A stretch of 24,086 bases of DNA, from NCBI GenBank assembly GCA_035297365.1, contig DATGZA010000052.1:1-24086 (forward strand). The letters run 5' to 3'. The translations under genes were made by a program, and so were the position numbers. This DNA comes from Nitrososphaeraceae archaeon. GTDB taxonomy: Archaea > Thermoproteota > Nitrososphaeria > Nitrososphaerales > Nitrososphaeraceae. Position 1 is the stretch's first letter, and every line of letters starts with the position of its first letter. Positions 4,478 to 19,397 of the stretch are shown here, piece by piece. The notes below the pieces were generated by a model. That model searched no databases. It had not been told where the DNA came from and saw only the letters and a list, made by a program, of their open reading frames with translations.

Positions 4478-4756
4478 GCTGTATTGCATAATTCACTACT
4501 GCTAGCACATTTAGCTGATCTATTTTAGTCATATTATGGGAACTGGAGAAATTACAGAGTCTCTGGTAAAGAGGCGAGATATTACTTGATATTGACGTTA
4601 TTGATAACTAGCATATTGAATTAGAAAAGATGAACAAAAACAATGAAGGCCGAAAATGCGTATATCCAGATTTATTTATTTATCAAATTACTTGGTTATA
4701 TGATGATATATTTTCATTTACCAGATAGACAGACTGAAGGTGTAGTAAGAGCACAT
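4478..4756 (+). mobile_element. Decayed IS5-family (IS903-like) left end: putative IR plus 5' transposase fragment
   Basis: Allowing frameshifts and a stop, it reads NWRNY.ESLV.RGEILLDIDVIDN*HIELEKMNKNNEGRKCVYPDLF.IKLLGYMMIYFHLPDRQTEGVVRAH, matching the NWxxYNxxLxxRG...F.LP.RQTEG N-terminus of IS903-type transposases. GCTGTATTGCATAATTC at 4478-4494 resembles an IS903-type IR. Confidence 0.8.
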
Positions 4757-4815: not shown

Positions 4816-5799
4816 TTGTTCAAGGATCTTTCAAAAAATAGAATAGATAATAAAAAGCCGCGAAAGGAAGGTTTGACTTACATTATAGACAAACTATCAT
4901 CACTTGATAAAGATACATTTGAAATTTTATCACCAGAAATAGATATGGTAAAAATTTACAATGTATTTCCATTATTAATGTCAGAATCTCAATTAGCAAA
5001 ACGAATTAACTTCTATCATGATTTTAATATTCTTGTATCTACAGGAAGCACATTTGCAGAATATGCAATAATGAATAAATCACTTGATAATTTTGTAAAG
5101 GATGTTTCTAAGATGGGATTTGACATCGTAGAGATAGGAGAAAGTCATGTAGATTTGACTCTTGAACAGAAAGAAAAAATCCGCAATATGGTATTATCCA
5201 ATAACTTAGAGATCCATTGGAAAATAGGAAAAAAGGATCCACGTCATCAACTTGGAGTAAGCACCATAATTACAAAGATAGATGAGGCAATAAAAGTTGG
5301 AGCAAATAAAATAATTTTAGAAGCGAATCAGGGATATAATGTAGGTATATATGATGAAAATGGTCTAGTAAAATGGACTTTTATTAGAGCCCTTACAGCT
5401 AAGTTTCCACCAAGTACATTTATTTTTGAAGCTCCTCTTGAATCTCAACAATCTGCATTATTAGCCGAATTTGGTGAGCGAGTAAATCTTTCAGAAATAG
5501 GAATAGAATTTTTGGCATCAATAGAATCACAAAGATTAGGATTTTTATCTAAATCAAGTTTCAGTTTAACATATCTTAAACCACCAGATGGTGGACCAGC
5601 ATTAAAGTTTGTGTATTATATAATCAAAAATAAAAATCCAATAGATCAAACAGAATTGATCAATCTAACTCATATGCCAAGAAGAACTGTTCAGAGTGCG
5701 TTGGATGAACTTTTATCTCAGGGTCTGATATCCGAAAGGTCAAGTTTAGATGATGCAAGAAAAAAAGTATATTACCCTATTCAATCTGATTGGCTTTAG
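4816..5799 (+). CDS. comA: Phosphosulfolactate synthase (ComA)-like TIM barrel fused to C-terminal winged helix-turn-helix
   Basis: KPRKEGLT, GFDIVEI, IGKKD, IFEAP..QQ..L..FG..VNL..I and ES.RLG are ComA-family motifs. About the last 72 aa (5581-5799) show a wHTH pattern (QTEL...MPRRTVQSALDELLSQGLI...DDARKKVYY). TTG start. Confidence 0.88.
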   Translation: MFKDLSKNRIDNKKPRKEGLTYIIDKLSSLDKDTFEILSPEIDMVKIYNVFPLLMSESQLAKRINFYHDFNILVSTGSTFAEYAIMNKSLDNFVKDVSKMGFDIVEIGESHVDLTLEQKEKIRNMVLSNNLEIHWKIGKKDPRHQLGVSTIITKIDEAIKVGANKIILEANQGYNVGIYDENGLVKWTFIRALTAKFPPSTFIFEAPLESQQSALLAEFGERVNLSEIGIEFLASIESQRLGFLSKSSFSLTYLKPPDGGPALKFVYYIIKNKNPIDQTELINLTHMPRRTVQSALDELLSQGLISERSSLDDARKKVYYPIQSDWL

Positions 5800-5999: not shown

Positions 6000-6200
6000 T
6001 CAAAATATAATGTTCTTAAGTATTTTCATTTTTTTACAAATTGGGCATATGTCTCTGCGATTTTTATTTTTTAGTATTGTGGCAAACCAATAACAATAGT
6101 CGCAAAGTACAAATCGACAATCTTTTTTTTCATAATAACTTCTATTTTCAATTATGTATTTGTTCTGCAAAACATTTAAACTCTCAATATTTGATGACAT
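6000..6200 (-). CDS. Small zinc-finger protein (CxxC...CPxC)
   Basis: FVLCDYCYWFAT...ICPICK; starts 22 nt after the co-oriented upstream gene. Confidence 0.7.
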   Translation of the reverse strand: MSSNIESLNVLQNKYIIENRSYYEKKDCRFVLCDYCYWFATILKNKNRRDICPICKKMKILKNIIF

Positions 6201-6222
6201 TATCTATACAACCATAATCATA

Positions 6223-6873
6223 TTATGTTTTCTTCGCTTGACTAATTTGTAGAATGTTTGAATCTTTCAGGCTATCATTTGAAATCCTGCGAATTTCTTT
6301 TAGATATGCATCATATCTTATATTAAATCCATCCTTATTTATATCAAAATAGACGTCAATATTATTTGGTTCAGATATCATTGCCAGGAGCGTTAATAGT
6401 CTTCTAACATCATTATCGTTATTTATAATTGAGGGTTCAAATACTATAGAAGACAATAATGTGACTAAATTTCTACGAAGTCCAATAAGGTGGAATGAAT
6501 GAGTAAGGAATAATTTGGCATCAAATGTATCGCCTGCTAATGCGGATAAACAAAAATCAAATAATAGATTTTTCAAAGGAACTCCAGAACTATTCTTTTG
6601 TATTTCTCTATAACGTCTAGGATTTTCCACTAACTCTTCTATCCCTGAATCTTTCAGAAATTTATTAAGAAGTTTGATGATATCTCTCAGGCTAATAGTG
6701 TTGCTCCCGACATCTAGTATCCCTAGCCTAGTTGCTATTCCGTCTTTATCCGTAAAATTATATTTAGAATCTATAGATGTATTAGGAGGTAGTTCTCCAA
6801 TTCCTGAAATGTCTACTTCTATAGGTATAAATTCGATTAGTCTTTCTATTTCTTTGAATATTCCATGACTCAT
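6223..6873 (-). CDS. Hypothetical protein (216 aa)
   Basis: Long ORF with normal composition; contains an RLGILDVGSNTISL segment (see findings). Confidence 0.8.
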   Translation of the reverse strand: MSHGIFKEIERLIEFIPIEVDISGIGELPPNTSIDSKYNFTDKDGIATRLGILDVGSNTISLRDIIKLLNKFLKDSGIEELVENPRRYREIQKNSSGVPLKNLLFDFCLSALAGDTFDAKLFLTHSFHLIGLRRNLVTLLSSIVFEPSIINNDNDVRRLLTLLAMISEPNNIDVYFDINKDGFNIRYDAYLKEIRRISNDSLKDSNILQISQAKKT

Positions 6874-7347
6874 TGACTTGTCAATGTTAAATATGGTTTA
6901 TTTCATTTATTATTCTTAGGAAAGATGCAAGTTTTGGACAATATATGCAAATTAAAACAATTCAAATAACATTATTCATACTTTTCACTTAACATATAAA
7001 TATCCCATATTTTACTTATAAAAATATGTAATATTTGCATTATGATATATGTAATATATACATAATACTAAATAATTCTCTATAATAAATTTGTAGCATT
7101 GTAATATTCTAGGAATTGAATAACTATACAATGATGCATGTTTTAATATTTACTTTTTTGGAAAATATATTTTCTAATTCATTAAAATGGGAAGGATTAC
7201 CCTTTTCACCATAACAATAATCTAAAAAAATAAGCTATTAGACTCTATTAATGAACTTATGTCATTGGATGCCATTTTTACATATAACTGAATTTTTAAG
7301 CACATTTGAATTGAATTAAATATAATGAGATGTAATCAAAGGAAAAG

Positions 7348-8133
7348 ATGAACTGCAAAAATGATTATTCCAACCTGAAAGTATACCTGGATTTAAAAGA
7401 AGTATCTAAAAATTTTTTATATACAAATTCTAATATGATGAATGTAGTATTAGAAAATGTAAATGTTCAAATTTTAGATGGTGAATTTGTTACAATTATA
7501 GGGAAATCGGGTTGTGGGAAGACTACACTCCTTAATATAATTGCAGGTTTTGAAAATTCATTTGGTGGAGAAATACTACTTGATGGCCAGCCAATCCGAA
7601 ATATTAGTCCAGACAGGGTAATGTTATTTCAAGAATCTGCGCTTTTTCCATGGCTTACAGCCTTTCAAAACATAGATGTTGCCTTGAAAATGGCAAAAAT
7701 TCCAAAGGATCAAAGGGAACAAATAATAAAATACTACCTGAAGATTGTTGATTTAACGGATTATTCGCATTCCTATATTCATCAACTTTCAGGAGGAATG
7801 AAACAACGAGTCTCTCTGGCTAGGGCGCTTGCTTTAAATCCTAAAATTTTACTTATGGATGAACCATTTGCTGCTTTAGATATTTCAATTAAAAACTCTC
7901 TTTACAAAGAGCTTTTAGAGTTACATAAAAAAACTAGAAAAACAATTCTATTCGTAACTCACAATATTAACGAAGCTATATTATTAGGAGATAGGGTTAT
8001 ATTAATGTCTCCAAAATTATGCAGTATAAAGAAAGAGTATATTATTGATATTCCTAAAGAGGAAAGACTCAATAATCCAGATATCAAAAATTTAATTGAC
8101 CAAATTACCTTAGATTTATATGAAGATGAATAA
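7348..8133 (+). CDS. ssuB: NitT/TauT (sulfonate/nitrate) ABC transporter ATP-binding subunit
   Basis: Walker A GKSGCGKT, FQE.ALFPWLT, LSGGMKQR, LLMDEPFAALD, FVTHNINEA. Confidence 0.92.
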   Translation: MNCKNDYSNLKVYLDLKEVSKNFLYTNSNMMNVVLENVNVQILDGEFVTIIGKSGCGKTTLLNIIAGFENSFGGEILLDGQPIRNISPDRVMLFQESALFPWLTAFQNIDVALKMAKIPKDQREQIIKYYLKIVDLTDYSHSYIHQLSGGMKQRVSLARALALNPKILLMDEPFAALDISIKNSLYKELLELHKKTRKTILFVTHNINEAILLGDRVILMSPKLCSIKKEYIIDIPKEERLNNPDIKNLIDQITLDLYEDE

Positions 8134-8161
8134 ACAGAGTTGACGCTGGAGACTAGAAAGC

Positions 8162-8989
8162 TTGGAATCAAAAATACAACGTAGTAAAAAAAAATATAAT
8201 CTAAGTAAAAACATAATAAACAAGGATACATTAAGTTTAATAGTTTTTATCGTAGCTTTCTTAGCTCTATGGCAATTAGTTTACATGTTAGAAATATGGC
8301 CAAAAGTATCTCTACCATCTCCGTTTGCGGTAGGACAGACAATTGTAGATTTATTATTGGATTTCACATTAGTTAAAGGTACAGCAATTTCACTATGGAG
8401 GTTATTTTTAGGTTTTCTAATGTCTATTTCAATAGGACTAATTGTAGGTTTGATCATGGTCAAGTTTTTACATTTTGGAAAAACTATGAGTTCATTTGCT
8501 TTAGGTTTGCAGTCATTTCCAAGTATTGCTTGGATTCCATTTGCTATTTTATTAATAGGCTTTAATGATTATGGAATATTGTTCGTAGTTGTTATGAGTT
8601 CTGTTTTTTCAGTGATGCTCTCAACTTATAGTGGGATTCAAAATATTTCTCCAATATATATAAAAGCTGCCAAGAATATGGGTGCAAAGGGATTTTCATT
8701 ATTTAGATATGTATTGATTCCTGCTGCCACTCCTTCTTTGATTATAGGTATGAGGCAGGCATGGTCTTTTGCTTGGCATGCACTAATTGGTGCAGAAATG
8801 CTAATAACAACTCTCGTCGGATTAGGTCACATATTATCCGTAGGAAGAGAATTCTCGAATATGAGTCAAATAATTGCAACGATGCTGGTTATATTTGCCA
8901 TAGGTTTAGTTTTTGATAGATTCGTTTTTTCAAAAATTGAAGAAAAGGTACGGGATAGATGGGGATTAAATCAACAGATTGAACAATAA
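8162..8989 (+). CDS. ssuC: NitT/TauT ABC transporter permease
   Basis: LPSP, SLWRL..GF, P.IAWIP, EAA-like loop AAKNMGA, W..LIGAEM, GLG; several TM helices; follows the ATPase gene. Confidence 0.92.
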   Translation: MESKIQRSKKKYNLSKNIINKDTLSLIVFIVAFLALWQLVYMLEIWPKVSLPSPFAVGQTIVDLLLDFTLVKGTAISLWRLFLGFLMSISIGLIVGLIMVKFLHFGKTMSSFALGLQSFPSIAWIPFAILLIGFNDYGILFVVVMSSVFSVMLSTYSGIQNISPIYIKAAKNMGAKGFSLFRYVLIPAATPSLIIGMRQAWSFAWHALIGAEMLITTLVGLGHILSVGREFSNMSQIIATMLVIFAIGLVFDRFVFSKIEEKVRDRWGLNQQIEQ

Positions 8990-9005: not shown

Positions 9006-9154
9006 TAGATTTATTGCGTAATTAGCAACCATCTAAAAATCCAGGTGATTAAATATGTTTCATGGTAAAAACCAATATGGATTTTATAATATTCCCAGTT
9101 TTTAGTGCAGATTTTAGGAAAATTTTATCCATGGTTAATTACGCAATAGATCTA
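9006..9154. mobile_element. Putative MITE or long hairpin, 149 bp, with 19-bp terminal inverted repeats
   Basis: TAGATTTATTGCGTAATTA (9006-9024) and TAATTACGCAATAGATCTA (9136-9154) are 18/19 reverse-complementary. The interior appears non-coding. Confidence 0.55.
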
Positions 9155-9372: not shown

Positions 9373-9428
9373 AAAATGCATATAAATGTTGAATTATGCG
9401 TATTCAATAGCATTCTTATATACATTTT
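9373..9428 (+). promoter_or_regulatory. Putative ssuA promoter (TATA about 9416-9422) inside an imperfect inverted repeat
   Basis: TTGAAT-N7-ATTCAA core (9389-9407) with outer arms AAAATGCATATAA / TTATATACATTTT; TTATATA lies 20-26 nt upstream of ATG 9442. Confidence 0.4.
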
Positions 9429-9441
9429 AATTAGTTTATTT

Positions 9442-10515
9442 ATGGACAAAAACATTAGATCCAGCGAAAATGCAATCCTGTTAATTATTCTGGGAGTGAT
9501 GATCCTTTTTCCAATATCTCAACAATCATTTTCTCAGGCAGAAGATAAAAAGGTATTAAGAATTGGTTATTTCCCAAACATCAATCATGCTCAAGCAGTA
9601 ATAGGAATAGGAAATGGAGATTTTCAAAAAGTATTAGGTAATAATATTGAAATTAAACCTCTTGTATTTAATGCCGGCCCTTCAGCGATAGAAGCGTTAT
9701 TTGCTAAACAAGTTGATGTTACATATGTCGGACCGAATCCAGCTATTAATGGATATGTTGTGTCAGGTGGTGAAGATATCAGAATAATATCAGGTGCCTC
9801 TAGTGGAGGAGCAGTATTCATTATCAGAGCTGATTCAGGTATAGAATCTGCTAAAGATTTTGCAAATAAGAAATTTGCATCGCCTCAACTAGGTAACACG
9901 CAAGACGTAGCGTTAAGAAATTATCTTATAGAGAATGGATATAAGACGACAGAAAATGGTGGAAATGTTACCGTTCTACCTGCAAAGAATCCAGACATAC
10001 TAACATTATTTCTGAAAAAGGAGATTGATGGTGCATGGGTTCCAGAGCCATGGGGAGAACGATTGATTAAAGAAGCTAACGGAAAATTGTTCTTGGATGA
10101 ACGTGATTTATGGTCTGATGGAAAATTTGTAACTGGTCTAATTGTTGCACGATCTGAGTATCTAAAACAAAATCCTGATGTCATTGAAAAATTTCTTAAA
10201 GCTCACATAGAAGAGACTCAATGGATAAATAATAATAAAGAAGAAGCAGTAAAGGCTTTTAATACTGAGCTCAAGAAGTTAACTGGACAGACAATACCAG
10301 AAGACACATTGAAAGAATCATTGATAAGGCTCGAACTAACTTATGACCCTATACAACAATCACTATACAAATCGGCTAATGATGCTTTTGATATAGGATT
10401 CCTTGGAAAAACGAAACCTGATCTTTCTAATATATTTGATCTAAATATACAGAACAAAATATTAGAAGAAAAGGCTTTAGTTAGCATAAATAGTACGAGT
10501 AGTAGTACATCCTAA
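9442..10515 (+). CDS. ssuA: Aliphatic-sulfonate-type ABC transporter substrate-binding protein
   Basis: LRIGYFPNINHAQA, FNAGPSAIEAL, YVGPNP, PQLGNTQDVALR, IDGAWVPEPW; N-terminal signal/anchor. Start placed at ATG 9442 rather than 9376 because of the TATA position. Confidence 0.9.
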   Translation: MDKNIRSSENAILLIILGVMILFPISQQSFSQAEDKKVLRIGYFPNINHAQAVIGIGNGDFQKVLGNNIEIKPLVFNAGPSAIEALFAKQVDVTYVGPNPAINGYVVSGGEDIRIISGASSGGAVFIIRADSGIESAKDFANKKFASPQLGNTQDVALRNYLIENGYKTTENGGNVTVLPAKNPDILTLFLKKEIDGAWVPEPWGERLIKEANGKLFLDERDLWSDGKFVTGLIVARSEYLKQNPDVIEKFLKAHIEETQWINNNKEEAVKAFNTELKKLTGQTIPEDTLKESLIRLELTYDPIQQSLYKSANDAFDIGFLGKTKPDLSNIFDLNIQNKILEEKALVSINSTSSSTS

Positions 10516-16609: not shown

Positions 16610-17443
16610 TTATAAAATAAATAAATAAATAAATATATTTAGTTTTAAAATCTCAGATAGAAATATAATGGCTGCAACTATCGCTAGAACTATTCCTATT
16701 AATTTTTTAAGATTTATTGGACCAAGACGATTTGTATATCTAGCTCCAAGAAACCCACCAATCATTGCGGAAGGTCCTAAAATAATTAAATAAAGTAAAT
16801 TCACTTCGTTGCTAACGACATGACCAATAAATCCGAATGTGCCCATAATTGCTGATGTAGCCATATTAGTGCCAACTGCTATTTTTGGTTCAGTTTTAAG
16901 AATTTTTATCATTATAGGAAGTCTTATACTACCAAGAACAAGACCTACTAATCCACCAAGTAGTCCTACAAAAAAACCTATACTTGATTCAAGAACTATA
17001 TCATAATAAGGATTTTGCTTTAGCGTTTTTTTTTCTAAATTTAATTTTACTTTTCTATTTTTGTTTTCTTTTAACAAGATTACTGATTCGTAAAATATTA
17101 TTAGTGCCACTAGGACAACAAAAAAATGAATCGGTACATTTTTTGTTAATAATGCTCCAAAAAATGCACCGATTGAACCAGTTACAGCCATTATTAGAAA
17201 AATTGAGATAGAAATGTTGTTGTTGCGTAAATGCTGTATTGATGCAGTAATAGCACCCAATGTACTCACTCCTATATTTGTACCAACAGATTCTGTTATA
17301 GAAATTCCAGTAGACAAAATAAATGGTAATCTCAAAACTCCAAGAACTAGACCCACCATTCCGCCAATAAAACTAATGATGAATCCAACAGAGGATAAAA
17401 CTAAAACACCAAATAAATCCAGCTCAATACCGAAAGTTAACAT
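16610..17443 (-). CDS. tauE: Sulfite exporter TauE/SafE family membrane protein
   Basis: Two internal repeats GG.VGLVLG..RLP...VGTN; GS.GAFFGA and GGFLGA helices; about 8 TM segments. Confidence 0.88.
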   Translation of the reverse strand: MLTFGIELDLFGVLVLSSVGFIISFIGGMVGLVLGVLRLPFILSTGISITESVGTNIGVSTLGAITASIQHLRNNNISISIFLIMAVTGSIGAFFGALLTKNVPIHFFVVLVALIIFYESVILLKENKNRKVKLNLEKKTLKQNPYYDIVLESSIGFFVGLLGGLVGLVLGSIRLPIMIKILKTEPKIAVGTNMATSAIMGTFGFIGHVVSNEVNLLYLIILGPSAMIGGFLGARYTNRLGPINLKKLIGIVLAIVAAIIFLSEILKLNIFIYLFIL

Positions 17444-18520: not shown

Positions 18521-19397
18521 CTACATTGGATATGGTATTACCAGTACTTCAGAATTTTTAAATTTCTTGATAATAGCCGTTCGTATAACTTTAACAATTT
18601 CATGACTATCTTTTAGTGTCGAATTCGGATCTAACTTGATGTGAACTTCAATATCAAAAGAATAACCTAATGGTCTTAACAAAACCTTTGATACAGGAAC
18701 AGAGAAATTCTTTTCCACAATGTTCTTGATATTGTCAGTTAATTGCGGACTGGCTACTGCATCCAATAATACAAATGTAGATTCTTTCAGAGCTACATAA
18801 GCCATAAAAAATATGTATCCTGCTATTATGATACTTCCAATTGAATCCATATATGGTATCCCAAAATATCCAGCAAGGACACTTGCAAATCCAACAAATG
18901 ACGCAGATCCATCCTTAATTGAATTTTTTGCATCCAATTTCAGGGAGATTAAATTATACTTTTTAGCAATATTGTGTACACGAAATGCTCTATGTAGTGA
19001 TATGATTCCTGCTGCCAGTAGGTTATCAAGGTTATTTCCGGATATGTAGTCTCTACTGGATGTAGTATTCTCTCATAAGCATTGTATATAATGAACAGGC
19101 CCAAGATAATCACTACGACTGCTGCAACAAATGCGGCAAAACTTTCTACCTTTGCATATCCGTATTGAAATAATCTGTTCTTTGGTTTTTGTATCATGTA
19201 AATTCCAAACCATACGATAAATGAGATTAGTGCATCAGCCATGGAGTCCAGACCATCTGCAAAAAGAGTTAGGCTAGTTGTATAAAATGAGACAAGTAAT
19301 TCTGCTATATACCTATTGTTAATAGCGTCCACATTGAAAGCGAAGCTGCATTTCTTCCCTCTTGAAATGCTAAGCTAGGTGACGAAGATTCACTCAA
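18521..19397 (-). pseudogene. Cation diffusion facilitator (FieF-like) with two frameshifts (or assembly errors)
   Basis: From TTG 19397: MSESSSPSLAFQEGRNAASLSMWTLLTIGI, +2 nt (TA repeat at 19306-19311), AELLVS...ADGLDSMAD...FQYGYAKVE...ITLIT, -1 nt (about 19020), LAAGIISLHRAF...LDAKNSIKD...EVHIKLD. Joins the two listed ORFs into a CDF of about 291 aa. Confidence 0.85.

What the first reader, a model, noticed from the sequence alone, without database searches (positions are those of the whole stretch)
4816..5799. ComA-wHTH fusion with altered active-site motifs: candidate enzyme-derived sulfonate/sulfite-sensing transcription factor
Seen: a full ComA-like barrel plus a C-terminal wHTH of about 72 aa ending DARKKVYY. 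Compared with canonical ComA motifs as I recall them, KFGWGT is KIYNVF, GGTLFE is GSTFAE, EISDG is EIGES, EVGKK is KIGKK (acidic residue lost, Lys kept), EARESG is EANQG and RxGLRGDT is RLGFLSKS. Known: ComA adds sulfite to PEP (first step of one coenzyme M pathway; also sulfolactate synthesis), and characterised ComA enzymes have no DNA-binding domain. Inference: a pseudo-enzyme or bifunctional one-component regulator sensing PEP, sulfite or phosphosulfolactate. No comB/C/DE is present in the window.
Basis: partly seen in the sequence, partly recalled or inferred. Interest (0 to 1): 0.8.

Follow-up and report, generated by a model that had tools for sequence, protein, structure and literature searches.

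The report
Enzyme-derived sulfur gene regulator, archaea
A soil ammonia-oxidising archaeon carries a sulfonate-making enzyme fold fused to a DNA-binding domain, which most likely acts as a switch for neighbouring sulfur-uptake genes and belongs to an undescribed regulator family found in two archaeal phyla.

Summary
ORF 4816-5799 (+, 327 aa) is a full ComA TIM barrel (Pfam 8e-60; model matches 1QWG) joined by a flexible linker to a MarR-like winged helix. All six altered motifs are there.

The fusion is no artefact. Over 1000 homologues exist in Nitrososphaerales, and more distant fused forms occur in Thermoplasmata. The fused forms sit together on the ComA tree. Many distant fusions keep canonical ComA motifs, and some have decayed barrels but intact winged helices.

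In 16 of 21 Nitrososphaerales loci the gene lies beside an SsuABC-type sulfonate importer. In Thermoplasmata it lies beside ATP sulfurylase and PAPS reductase.

A motif of two TGCA-type cores, YGCA-N5-TGCR, sits just upstream of the fusion gene in both phyla (13 of 72 against 0.6 expected in the untrained set). It also precedes ABC genes only where the fusion is present (13 of 50 against 0 of 36).

The genome has no ComB, ComC, ComD or second ComA.

Best reading: an autoregulated, probably trimeric one-component regulator of sulfur acquisition, with the remodelled ComA pocket as sensor. The ligand, loss of catalysis and DNA binding are untested, and operator candidates in this window are weak. 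I found no paper describing the family.

The parts
4816..5799 (+). ComA-wHTH gene (327 aa, TTG start, stop included)
   Evidence: ORF. Start agrees with 20 homologues. More than 1000 homologues; the best 120 are 312-369 aa and cover 98-100% of the query.
4849..5547 (+). ComA-type TIM barrel, residues 12-244, with a clade-specific remodelled pocket
   Evidence: PF02679 8.1e-60. Model against 1qwg gives TM 0.86. Substitution table: E136K, R171N, G78S, N227E, D246K and others. Trimer model has an ipSAE score of 0.87 against 0.02 for the best control, with the interface in the barrel.
5548..5595 (+). Flexible linker, residues 245-260
   Evidence: Mean pLDDT of 62-65 in blocks 241-260, and below 50 at 249-253.
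5596..5778 (+). MarR-like winged helix-turn-helix, residues 261-321. Recognition helix MPRRTVQSALDEL, wing DDARKKVYY
   Evidence: Secondary structure H-H-H-E-E. MarR_2 1.2e-5, under the cut-off. Tail profile against PDB gives MarR/SlyA. R40, T42, Q44, D64, R66 and Y70 of the tail alignment are invariant in 46 tails of two phyla.
4645..4665 (-). Candidate operator, one good half-site (TGCGTATAT), 150 nt upstream of the start and just upstream of a TATA-like TTTATTTATTTAT
   Evidence: PWM 19.1 bits, the second-best hit in the 2.52-Mb genome, which has 8 hits at 16 bits or more against 1-5 in shuffles.
7022..7069 (+). Candidate operator pair: two tandem 23-nt units, ATATGTAATATTTGCAT... and ATATGTAATATATACAT..., in the divergent intergenic region between gene 6223-6873 and the ABC operon
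   Evidence: Direct repeat D11. PWM 13.8 and 9.2 bits. TGTA-N5-TGCA is one mismatch from the motif. It resembles the own-promoter sites of L034, L037, L039 and L041.
7267..7287 (-). Candidate operator 60 nt upstream of the ABC ATPase start codon
   Evidence: PWM 13.0 bits. Three of the five window hits at 12 bits or more (expected 1.0) lie in the 838 nt upstream of the fusion gene or the ABC operon.
7348..8133 (+). ABC transporter ATPase (NitT/TauT type), probable target
   Evidence: PF00005 3.7e-33. Nearest NCBIfam is SaoA at 247 bits, under its cut-off. Cluster c3 is syntenic.
8162..8989 (+). ABC transporter permease, probable target
   Evidence: PF00528. Nearest NCBIfam families are SaoP and SsuC, both under their cut-offs. 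Cluster c2.
9376..10515 (+). Substrate-binding protein of the aliphatic sulfonate (SsuA) subfamily, probable target
   Evidence: TIGR01728 SsuA_fam 196.1 bits, above its cut-off of 163.5. NMT1_2. Cluster c1.
6223..6873 (-). Gene for a 216-aa protein of unknown family between the fusion gene and the ABC operon, divergent from the operon. Possible co-regulated neighbour
   Evidence: No Pfam or NCBIfam hit. Atlas score 0.81, which is chance level. Its cluster recurs in 4 of 21 loci. RNA-library contigs cover 6170-6864.

Best explanation
The gene encodes a member of an undescribed archaeal family of one-component regulators. A ComA (phosphosulfolactate synthase) TIM barrel, predicted to keep the ComA homotrimer, carries a MarR-like winged helix on a flexible linker.

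The winged helices read TGCA-type cores whose start positions lie 9 bp apart (YGCA-N5-TGCR). In Nitrososphaerales these often form arrays of three cores spaced 9+11 bp. The sites lie between a TATA-like box and the start codon of the regulator's own gene, and in front of the neighbouring SsuABC-type sulfonate importer genes. The protein therefore most likely represses itself and the importer.

An anionic sulfur metabolite bound in the pocket at the subunit interface sets DNA affinity. My preferred candidate is sulfite or a sulfite-derived sulfonate acting as a sulfur-sufficiency signal, with an imported sulfonate as the second choice.

In the window's clade the pocket is re-wired in a conserved way (E to K at the end of beta-5, RESG to NEG, GN to AE, RGDT to LSKS). 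I read this barrel as a sensor rather than a working phosphosulfolactate synthase.

Shown: the architecture, its conservation, synteny, the motif and its co-occurrence with the fusion.

Inferred: DNA binding by this protein, repression, the ligand and loss of catalysis.
For: Architecture and fold.

Widespread and not an artefact.
- 1026 proteins at E<=0.001. The best 120 are 312-369 aa at 60-97% identity and 98-100% coverage.
- 22 full-length places in 16 of 201 genomes of the class.
- Fused forms at 25-41% identity come from Nitrososphaerota and Thermoplasmata.
- 293 relatives in genome contigs. All of the best 80 match through the tail.

Single cluster of fusions: one branch (SH-aLRT 98) holds all 20 fused rows plus 1 unfused row, out of 97.

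The winged helix outlives the enzyme: members keeping only 10-17 of 23 family-conserved barrel positions still carry tails with LP(R/K)RTVQ.

Synteny.
- SBP, permease and ATPase lie within 5 genes in 16 of 21 Nitrososphaerales loci, in divergent and co-directional arrangements. The SBP passes SsuA_fam.
- Rhodanese is present in 7 loci.
- In the 80 other loci, ATP sulfurylase appears in 14, PAPS reductase in 6 and an SDR in 25.

Operator.
- A 21-bp PWM site lies 8-15 nt upstream of the start in 9 of 19 upstream regions.
- There are 30 hits at 15 bits or more in 379 kb, against 2.9 in shuffles. Of the 19 non-training hits, 10 lie in the 21.5 kb of intergenic DNA flanking fusion or ABC genes, 4 in 66 kb of other intergenic DNA and 5 in 291 kb of coding DNA.
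- Independent set in another phylum: YGCA-N5-TGCR occurs in 13 of 72 upstream regions against 0.6 expected. Every other spacer from 0 to 12 gives 0-3.
- In Nitrososphaerales it occurs in 7 of 21 own-gene regions and 13 of 50 ABC-gene upstream regions, against 0.6 and 1.4 expected.
- Control: 14 loci holding the same type of transporter but no fusion give 0 of 36 upstream regions, and 1 PWM hit in 182 kb.
- The recognition-helix motif RRTVQ is conserved in 46 tails of both phyla: R40, T42 and Q44 invariant, R41 and V43 in at least 90%.

Trimer and arrays.
- The three-copy model has an ipSAE score of 0.87, with the best of 3 controls at 0.02. The three runs agree in at least 70% of their contacts, and the partner's pLDDT is at least 83.
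- In the tool's calibration the mark was reached by 20 of 30 proteins solved as pairs and by 1 of 23 solved as single chains.
- The interface residues include the changed positions 48-51, 140-142, 171-172 and 241-247.
- A like complex is solved: ComA is a homotrimer (passage). The pass may therefore be from memory.
- Triple-core arrays spaced 9+11 number 17 in 403 kb, against about 1.2 in shuffles, and 0 in controls.

No pathway partners.
- No ComB or ComC, ComD under its cut-off, and a single ComA in this genome.
- ComB was found in 0 of 5 genomes that carry canonical-motif fusions.

Nested distribution: 16 of 16 fusion-bearing genomes have the SBP at E<=1e-119, and 14 further genomes have it without the fusion.

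Against: - No experiment of any kind supports DNA binding, ligand binding or loss of activity.
- In the window itself there is no exact YGCA-N5-TGCR site in front of the fusion gene or the ABC operon.
- The best window site is one half-site 150 nt upstream, and the ABC-side sites score only 13-14 bits.
- The query keeps all 23 family-wide conserved residues, and the pocket is under strong constraint. This fits an enzyme as well as a sensor.
- Three of three other species of the same genus lack the fusion but keep the SBP. The transporter does not need it.
- The related loci are kin, so the counts overstate independence.
- My ORF calls were crude: longest ORFs at 80 aa or more. In the GC-rich loci they recovered the fusion gene in only 46 of 80.
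- Much Thermoplasmata synteny (ROK, TIM, GH15, GH57) may be shared ancestry rather than function.
- A C3 trimer does not obviously fit a two-core site.
- The importer's substrate is known only at subfamily level.
- The position between TATA box and start rests on sequence likeness, not on mapped transcript starts.
Confidence: 0.6

Rival explanations
1. It is a bifunctional enzyme-repressor of the BirA or PutA kind. The barrel still catalyses a reaction on a C3 sulfonate, and substrate or product occupancy tunes the winged helix. The reaction could be PEP + sulfite to phosphosulfolactate, its reverse, or a related sulfite-eliminating step acting on an imported sulfonate. In the last case the protein would be both the missing desulfonating enzyme of the importer locus and its regulator.
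For: - All 23 family-wide conserved residues are kept.
- The changed positions are themselves 88-100% conserved in 121 sequences, as expected after a change of specificity rather than decay.
- Distant fusions keep canonical motifs and sit next to sulfite-producing genes for ATP sulfurylase and PAPS reductase.
- An ATP sulfurylase-ComA fusion exists (P0259).
- No desulfonating enzyme is seen next to the importer in the window.
- The genome can reduce sulfite further.
Against: - The score is below the NCBIfam equivalog cut-off, 158 against 280.
- The residue at the end of beta-5 that is E in 96% of 71 canonical enzymes is K here, and R171, 86% conserved, is N.
- There is no ComB, ComC or ComD to use the product.
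- Fourteen genomes run the same type of importer without this protein.
- Family members with decayed barrels keep the winged helix.
Confidence: 0.27
2. It is a plain metabolic enzyme whose C-terminal winged helix serves protein-protein contact or unspecific nucleoid attachment. The same genome fuses a like tail to NAD kinase. On this reading the conserved core motif is bound by a different regulator.
For: - A tail profile finds only two ORFs in the genome, this one and an NAD kinase with a C-terminal tail. That NAD kinase form matches in 110 of 114 genomes of family f2.
- Winged helices can mediate protein contacts; this is recalled general knowledge.
- The tail lacks the MarR dimerisation helices.
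Against: - The motif co-occurs with the fusion gene in two phyla whose only shared neighbour is the fusion gene itself.
- It is absent from transporter loci of genomes without the fusion.
- The recognition helix and the wing arginines are invariant.
- The best solved relatives are DNA-binding MarR/SlyA proteins.
Confidence: 0.1
3. The fusion is an assembly or annotation artefact, or a decaying pseudogene.
For: Three other species of the genus lack it.
Against: - The frame is intact and 97%- and 92%-identical copies are found elsewhere.
- Full-length copies lie on single-contig genomes of 2.8-3.4 Mb.
- DNA runs of 7 studies hold more than 60% of the sampled words.
- Conservation is 0.69-0.77 mean pairwise identity in every part of the protein.
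Confidence: 0.01

Closest known systems
Phosphosulfolactate synthase ComA (M. jannaschii MJ0255, PDB 1qwg; B. subtilis PSL synthase, PDB 1u83)
   Same: Same Pfam family and the same TIM-barrel fold. A homotrimer is predicted with the interface in the barrel. ComA adds sulfite to PEP (passages of PMC9457059) and is a homotrimer (passage).
   Different: - It carries a C-terminal winged helix.
- It scores below the equivalog cut-off.
- At least 14 positions that are 66-100% conserved in 71 canonical sequences are replaced.
- There is no ComB, ComC or ComD in the genome.
- It sits by an importer rather than in a biosynthetic cluster.
MarR/SlyA family winged-helix regulators
   Same: The helix-helix-helix-strand-strand core and the D-x-R wing are shared. 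The best solved sequence relatives are of this family. A short symmetric site lies at the regulator's own promoter.
   Different: - It is only the 60-residue wHTH core, without the family's N- and C-terminal dimerisation helices.
- It scores under the Pfam cut-offs.
- Oligomerisation is supplied by an enzyme barrel, probably a trimer.
Enzyme-regulator fusions such as BirA, PutA and NadR, and the archaeal RbkR (riboflavin kinase plus wHTH).
   Same: One chain combines an enzyme fold that binds a pathway metabolite with a DNA-binding domain, and sits beside genes of the same metabolism.
   Different: - The enzyme fold is different (ComA).
- The winged helix is at the C-terminus.
- The scaffold is a predicted trimer.
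- The sulfur-acquisition target set is inferred, not shown.
- No member of this family has been studied.
Plant HSA32, a ComA homologue with no known enzymatic role
   Same: It is a ComA-family barrel used for something other than coenzyme M synthesis (passage of bioRxiv 10.1101/2024.10.15.618377).
   Different: HSA32 has no DNA-binding domain and acts through HSP101. It is eukaryotic.
Bacterial regulators of ssu/tau sulfonate-uptake operons (CysB, Cbl, SsuR). Recalled, not checked here
   Same: Control of an SsuABC-type importer according to sulfur status.
   Different: Those are LysR-type or other bacterial regulators with unrelated sensor domains. No archaeal counterpart came up in my searches.

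Membership tests
ComA / phosphosulfolactate synthase (PF02679) | Match to the Pfam family model above its gathering score | tested here: met
   202.7 bits against a cut-off of 25.2, covering model positions 4-241 of 243.
ComA / phosphosulfolactate synthase (PF02679) | (beta/alpha)8 barrel like the solved enzymes | tested here: met
   AF2 model with pLDDT 89.6. 1qwg gives TM 0.86 and rmsd 2.8 over 244 columns; 1u83 gives TM 0.85.
ComA / phosphosulfolactate synthase (PF02679) | Equivalog-level score (NCBIfam TIGR03849 arch_ComA) | tested here: not met
   158.2 bits against a cut-off of 280.
ComA / phosphosulfolactate synthase (PF02679) | Canonical motif residues: KxGWGT, GGT, SDG, E of EVGKK, R of RESG, GN, RGDT | tested here: not met
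   G78S, S108G, G110N, E136K, R171N, N227E, R244L, D246K and T247S, measured against 71 short ComA sequences. K46, T79, E82, E106, K140, E169, E205, Q211, Q212 and R240 are kept. Which residues bind Mg2+ or act as the acid I could not check, because the structure paper is not held.
ComA / phosphosulfolactate synthase (PF02679) | Pathway partners (ComB, ComC, ComDE) in the genome | tested here: not met
   PF04029 and PF02615 give no match. TIGR03845 gives 21 bits against 148. The genome is 97.1% complete.
ComA / phosphosulfolactate synthase (PF02679) | Homotrimer with the interface in the barrel | tested here: met
   This is a prediction only. ipSAE score 0.87, best of 3 controls 0.02. The mark was reached by 20 of 30 solved pairs and 1 of 23 single chains in the calibration. 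Runs agree in at least 70% of contacts, and partner pLDDT is at least 83. A like complex is solved, so the pass may be from memory.
ComA / phosphosulfolactate synthase (PF02679) | Catalyses PEP + sulfite to (2R)-phospho-3-sulfolactate | not testable with these tools
   Needs an enzyme assay.
MarR-type winged-helix regulators | Winged helix-turn-helix fold | tested here: met
   H261-273, H278-285, H289-301, E305-309, E317-321, with block-mean pLDDT 86-96.
MarR-type winged-helix regulators | Pfam MarR or MarR_2 above the gathering score | tested here: not met
   MarR_2 25.8 against 27, and MarR 21.9 against 24.6. Only 13 of the 120 listed homologues carry a precomputed HTH family.
MarR-type winged-helix regulators | Dimerisation helices flanking the wHTH | tested here: not met
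   The tail holds only the wHTH core after a linker.
MarR-type winged-helix regulators | Symmetric operator at the regulator's own promoter | tested here: met
   Met in relatives and with a negative control. In the window itself only weak candidates are seen.
MarR-type winged-helix regulators | Sequence-specific DNA binding | not testable with these tools
   Needs EMSA or DAP-seq.
One-component enzyme-derived regulators (BirA/PutA/RbkR kind) | A metabolite-binding enzyme fold and a DNA-binding domain in one chain | tested here: met
One-component enzyme-derived regulators (BirA/PutA/RbkR kind) | Neighbouring or target genes belong to the metabolism of the enzyme's substrate | tested here: met
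   A sulfonate-type importer in 16 of 21 loci. ATP sulfurylase, PAPS reductase and rhodanese in others.
One-component enzyme-derived regulators (BirA/PutA/RbkR kind) | Ligand changes DNA affinity | not testable with these tools
   Needs binding assays with and without ligands.

The most novel reading that the evidence does not exclude
ComA-wHTH is the sulfur-status regulator of two archaeal phyla, a role for which I know of no archaeal candidate, and it senses by chemistry.

On this reading the trimeric barrel captures sulfite, with PEP in the canonical-motif members and directly or as a sulfonate in the remodelled Nitrososphaerales clade. It does so in pockets at the subunit interfaces, and the resulting change in the trimer repositions three tethered winged helices. 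These read three TGCA cores spaced 9+11 bp and shut down sulfonate import or sulfate activation.

That would be a trimeric transcription factor built on an enzyme, with an operator grammar unlike that of dimeric MarR proteins.
Probability: 0.2. Interest if true: 0.85.

Novelty: new variant of a known kind. Interest (0 to 1): 0.72.

Why it matters
- Regulators of sulfur assimilation in archaea are, to my knowledge, essentially unknown. None came up in my literature searches.
- Public annotation calls every member of this family 'phosphosulfolactate synthase', because the winged helix falls under Pfam's cut-offs. That label wrongly suggests coenzyme M or sulfolactate synthesis in soil ammonia oxidisers and in peat and soil Thermoplasmata.
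- If the reading is right, it gives a testable transcription factor, a defined DNA motif and a small regulon in cultured Nitrososphaera species.
- It would also be a clear case of an enzyme turning into a sensor. All grades are still alive: canonical pocket, re-wired pocket and decayed pocket.
- It raises an unusual structural question, namely how a three-fold scaffold reads DNA.
- It bears on how abundant soil nitrifiers acquire organic sulfur.

Tried and rejected
Literature
- The ComA structure and discovery papers are not held. The catalytic roles of single residues therefore stayed unverified.
- Literature searches found nothing on a ComA-HTH fusion. They covered: phosphosulfolactate synthase with Nitrososphaera; with 'active site'; ComA, coenzyme M and Thaumarchaeota; phosphosulfolactate synthase alone (39 papers); PF02679; phosphosulfolactate with helix-turn-helix; AOA with sulfonate; sulfolactate with archaeal taxa.
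- The library lacks most subscription journals. Supplements were not consulted.

Tools that did not answer
A 5-row alignment worked.

Checks that led nowhere
- The SDR at 1186-2034 is only generically like the Thermoplasmata SDR neighbour, at 25% identity. I dropped it as a link.
- TauE/SafE at 16610-17443 is not a recurrent neighbour.
- The strongest PWM hit of the genome (C35:4629) lies in an ORF-free gap with no telling neighbour.
- The short core pattern is too common to use genome-wide in this AT-rich genome, with 125 exact hits.
- Triple-core arrays are uninformative in the GC-rich Thermoplasmata.
- The AU test of fused-form monophyly did not finish in two runs.
- The Atlas gave nothing for the 216-aa neighbour.

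Expression
- Contigs from RNA libraries, 95-99% alike, cover 4832-5450, 6170-6864 and 7380-8177 in runs of three studies.
- The tool warns that DNA can be present in such libraries. This is at most a weak hint of expression.
- Parts without cover, including the winged-helix end of the gene, say nothing.
Full report
**What is there**

The window is AT-rich (24-41% G+C) and lies on contig C52 of a 2.52-Mb genome that is 97.1% complete. Its relatives are ammonia-oxidising Nitrososphaerales, going by the names sources give the homologues.

ORF 4816-5799 (+) encodes 327 aa from a TTG start. That start matches the N-termini of 20 homologues.

Residues 12-244 match Pfam ComA end to end at 8.1e-60. 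The nearest solved sequence is M. jannaschii ComA, 1qwg, at 3.2e-28.

An AlphaFold2 model built on an 88-row alignment has mean pLDDT 89.6. It shows:
- a (beta/alpha)8 barrel that Foldseek puts on 1qwg (TM 0.86) and on the B. subtilis enzyme 1u83 (TM 0.85);
- a low-confidence linker;
- three helices and a two-stranded wing at 261-321.

The tail is under Pfam's MarR cut-offs (25.8 against 27 bits). A profile of 46 tails finds MarR/SlyA regulators as its best solved relatives (4mnu, 1.2e-4). The language-model atlas places it among small archaeal MarR/HTH_24 proteins at a score of 0.90, which is a lead only.

**The motif claim**

I aligned the query with 100 sequences of at least 235 aa, taken from the best 150 hits of a search of 1.84 billion representative proteins. 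I then tabulated 71 short canonical ComA, 21 other fused forms and 121 sequences of the query's clade.

| Position | Canonical ComA | Query clade |
|---|---|---|
| 78 | G 100% | S 99% |
| 108 | S 94% | G 95% |
| 110 | G 92% | N 97% |
| 136 | E 96% | K 91% |
| 171 | R 86% | N 100% |
| 227 | N 96% | E 88% |
| 244 | R 85% | L or P |
| 246 | D 73% | K 95% |
| 247 | T 90% | S or A |

The GWGT loop also becomes Y-G/N-x-L/F.

The 23 positions conserved across the whole family are all kept. They include K46, T79, E82, E106, K140, E169, E205, Q211, Q212 and R240.

K136 sits at the C-terminal end of strand beta-5 (132-137), on the catalytic face of the barrel.

The pocket is therefore re-wired, not decayed. 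The score against the NCBIfam equivalog model is 158 bits against a cut-off of 280. I could not verify which residues bind Mg2+ or act as the acid, because the structure paper is not held.

**The fusion is real, old and monophyletic-looking**

- The word-indexed search found 1026 proteins at E<=0.001. The best 120 are 312-369 aa, 60-97% identical, and cover 98-100% of the query.
- The sources name them 'phosphosulfolactate synthase'. Only 13 of the 120 carry a precomputed HTH family.
- In 201 genomes of the class, 22 full-length places lie in 16 genomes: 11 of 15 in the window's family, 4 of 114 in family f2 and 1 of 2 in f5. Several genomes have two copies.
- The three other species of the window's genus lack it.
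- These tallies include one unpublished genome, G132, which has no copy.
- Fused forms at 25-41% identity exist. Their named members come from Nitrososphaerota, Thermoplasmata and Thermogymnomonas acidicola.
- A scan of one genome per species found 293 relatives. All of the best 80 match through the tail, and most are soil and peat Thermoplasmata MAGs.
- On an IQ-TREE tree of the barrel alone, with 97 rows, one branch with SH-aLRT 98 holds all 20 fused rows and one unfused row. I left out two truncated rows and one partial row. An AU test did not finish.
- Other ComA fusions are with enzymes: ComB, an adenylation-carrier module and ATP sulfurylase.

**Grades of decay**

Distant fusions such as P0124, P0126, P0127, P0133, P0139, P0146 and P0153 keep near-canonical motifs.

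Others have lost many family-conserved barrel positions yet keep tails with KF(V/I)Y and LP(R/K)RTVQ:
- P0130 keeps 14 of 23;
- P0150 keeps 13;
- P0157 keeps 14;
- P0268 keeps 10.

What is always kept is the winged helix. Within the query's clade the winged helix is at least as conserved as the barrel (mean pairwise identity 0.72 against 0.69).

**Neighbours**

With crude ORF calls and BLAST clustering over 21 Nitrososphaerales loci, an NMT1_2 substrate-binding protein, a permease and an ABC ATPase lie within five genes of the fusion gene in 16 loci. They occur in divergent, upstream and downstream arrangements.

The five loci without them are four second paralogues and one contig end.

The window's binding protein passes NCBIfam's aliphatic sulfonate (SsuA) subfamily model at 196 against 163.5 bits. 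A rhodanese recurs in 7 loci.

In the 80 other loci the recurrent neighbours are an SDR (25 loci), ATP sulfurylase (14) and PAPS reductase (6), alongside sugar-metabolism genes that may simply reflect kinship. In these GC-rich loci my ORF calls recovered the fusion gene in only 46 of 80.

The three Nitrososphaerota loci with canonical motifs show the same divergent neighbour pattern, and in L043 Pfam confirmed the three genes as the ABC transporter.

The pathway partners are missing:
- The window's genome has no ComB or ComC and no ComD above its cut-off, and this is its only ComA.
- ComB was found in 0 of 5 genomes carrying canonical-motif fusions.
- The genome does have PAPS reductase and a sulfite/nitrite reductase, so sulfite is an intermediate in this cell.

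**A DNA motif that travels with the fusion**

The upstream regions of the Nitrososphaerales genes show a 21-bp element, ATATGCGCAAAATCTGCATAT and its variants. It lies 8-15 nt before the start codon and just after a conserved TTCAAAATA in 9 of 19 regions.

A PWM built from these sites gave the following:
- 30 hits at 15 bits or more in 379 kb, against 2.9 in shuffles.
- Of the 19 hits not used for training, 10 lie in the 21.5 kb of intergenic DNA flanking fusion or ABC genes.
- Four lie in 66 kb of other intergenic DNA, and five in 291 kb of coding DNA.

The core is two TGCA-type tetramers, YGCA-N5-TGCR.

I tested this on sequences that played no part in building it. These were the -90..+30 regions of 72 of the 80 Thermoplasmata and canonical-motif loci; eight had too little upstream sequence. 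The pattern occurs in 13 against 0.6 expected, and every other spacer from 0 to 12 gives 0-3. The PWM also puts 12 of its 31 hits in the 4% of that sequence next to the gene start.

In Nitrososphaerales the pattern is in 7 of 21 own-gene and 13 of 50 ABC-gene upstream regions, against 0.6 and 1.4 expected. Some of these regions are shared divergent promoters.

As a control I fetched 14 loci from genomes that hold the same type of transporter (52-70% identity) but no fusion. There, 0 of 36 ABC-gene upstream regions carry the pattern, and the PWM finds one hit in 182 kb.

The recognition-helix motif RRTVQ and the wing D-x-R...Y are conserved in 46 tails of both phyla. In the tail alignment, R40, T42, Q44, D64, R66 and Y70 are invariant, and R41 and V43 are in at least 90%. 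A conserved reader thus matches a conserved site.

Kin are not independent, so these counts overstate the number of independent events.

**Oligomer**

A three-copy model has an ipSAE score of 0.87 against 0.02 for the best of three controls. The runs agree in at least 70% of contacts, and the partner's pLDDT is at least 83. In the tool's calibration 20 of 30 solved pairs and 1 of 23 single chains reached the mark.

ComA is a solved homotrimer (passage of bioRxiv 10.1101/2024.10.15.618377). The pass may therefore be from memory, and it shows likeness rather than binding.

The confident interface is all barrel. It includes many of the changed positions: 26-31, 48-55, 140-142, 171-172 and 241-247.

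In fusion-bearing Nitrososphaerales loci, three cores spaced 9+11 bp occur 17 times in 403 kb, against about 1.2 in shuffles. Other spacing pairs occur 1-2 times each, and there are none in the controls. Three cores for three winged helices is an attractive fit, but it is only a conjecture.

**The window itself**

The operator evidence here is the weakest part.
- There is no exact YGCA-N5-TGCR in front of the fusion gene or the ABC operon.
- The PWM finds five sites at 12 bits or more in the 24 kb, against 1.0 expected.
- Three of them lie in the 838 nt upstream of the fusion gene or the operon:
  - 4645-4665, 19 bits, the second best in the whole genome, beside a TATA-like run;
  - 7022-7042, followed by a tandem second copy;
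  - 7267-7287, 60 nt before the ATPase start.
- They resemble the TGTA-N5-TGCR variant seen in four AT-richer relatives.

**Mechanism proposed, and what is shown**

Shown by computation: the two-domain architecture, its age, its synteny with sulfur-acquisition genes, the clade-specific conserved re-wiring of the pocket, a specific core motif at the own-gene and transporter promoters that is present only where the fusion is present, and a confident trimer model.

Inferred: that this protein binds those sites; that it represses, judged from the site position between the TATA-like box and the start; that an anionic sulfur compound in the interface pocket controls binding; and that the barrel of this clade no longer makes phosphosulfolactate.

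I favour a sulfur-sufficiency signal such as sulfite or a sulfite adduct. Sulfite is the one metabolite common to the two contexts, sulfonate import in one phylum and sulfate activation and reduction in the other, and it is ComA's own substrate (PMC9457059 passages).

**Rivals**

- A bifunctional enzyme-repressor remains well possible, since all family-wide residues are kept.
- A non-DNA role for the tail is unlikely, given the control.
- An artefact is excluded.

**Novelty**

Eight literature searches found no description of a ComA-HTH protein. They also found no description of a role for ComA homologues in ammonia oxidisers or Thermoplasmata. The library lacks most subscription journals, and I saw no supplements.

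Enzyme-derived one-component regulators are a known kind (the examples are recalled, not checked). This would be a new variant, with an unusual trimeric scaffold and a sulfur regulon in archaea.

Noticed in passing
G000 contig C27:19922-20935 (+), outside the window: An NAD kinase (PF20143, PF01513) carries a C-terminal tail like the one studied here (...LPERTIRLSLGHLLNRGYVKKKTSLRDARQRIYELKI). It is the only other ORF of the genome that the tail profile finds. The same form matches in 110 of 114 genomes of family f2. This is a second enzyme-wHTH fusion in these archaea, of unknown meaning.
   Followed up: partly
window 18521-19332 (-): A cation-efflux (CDF) transporter appears split into two adjacent ORFs. 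ORF 18949-19332 matches Cation_efflux positions 13-109. ORF 18521-18937 matches positions 139-198 plus the ZT_dimer domain. This could be a frameshift, a stop or a sequencing error.
   Followed up: no
window 9006-9024 and 9136-9154: A 19-nt inverted repeat, 95% complementary with arms 111 nt apart, lies in the unusually long 386-nt gap between the permease and the substrate-binding-protein genes.
   Followed up: no
window 16610-17443 (-): A TauE/SafE-family (sulfite exporter type) membrane protein lies 11 kb from the fusion gene. It is not a recurrent neighbour in relatives.
   Followed up: partly
L035, L036, L038, L040 (second paralogues in four genomes): The second copies of the fusion gene are not next to ABC genes and lack the TGCA motif. 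Their neighbours are a glyoxalase, a CAP-domain protein, UDG and a histidine kinase. They share a different near-palindrome, (G)AATATTCAATATATAGG, 12 nt before the start, as if the paralogues had diverged in their operators.
   Followed up: partly
P0259, P0151, P0160, P0202, P0255 (proteins): Other ComA fusions exist: ATP sulfurylase-ComA, ComA-ComB, and adenylation/carrier-protein-ComA.
   Followed up: partly
G000 contig C35:4629-4649: The best PWM hit of the genome (23.6 bits, ATATGTGCAGAATCTGCAGAT) lies in a 1.6-kb stretch with no ORF of 70 aa or more.
   Followed up: partly
window residues 321-327 of the protein (nt 5776-5796): The C-terminal heptapeptide P-x-x-S-x-W-L is the most conserved part within the Nitrososphaerales clade (mean pairwise identity 0.77). 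It is absent from the Thermoplasmata forms. Its pLDDT is under 50 in the model.
   Followed up: no
L122-L124 (three species of the window's genus): In the three congeners without the fusion, the SsuA-type binding-protein gene stands without an adjacent permease or ATPase gene at my BLAST threshold.
   Followed up: no
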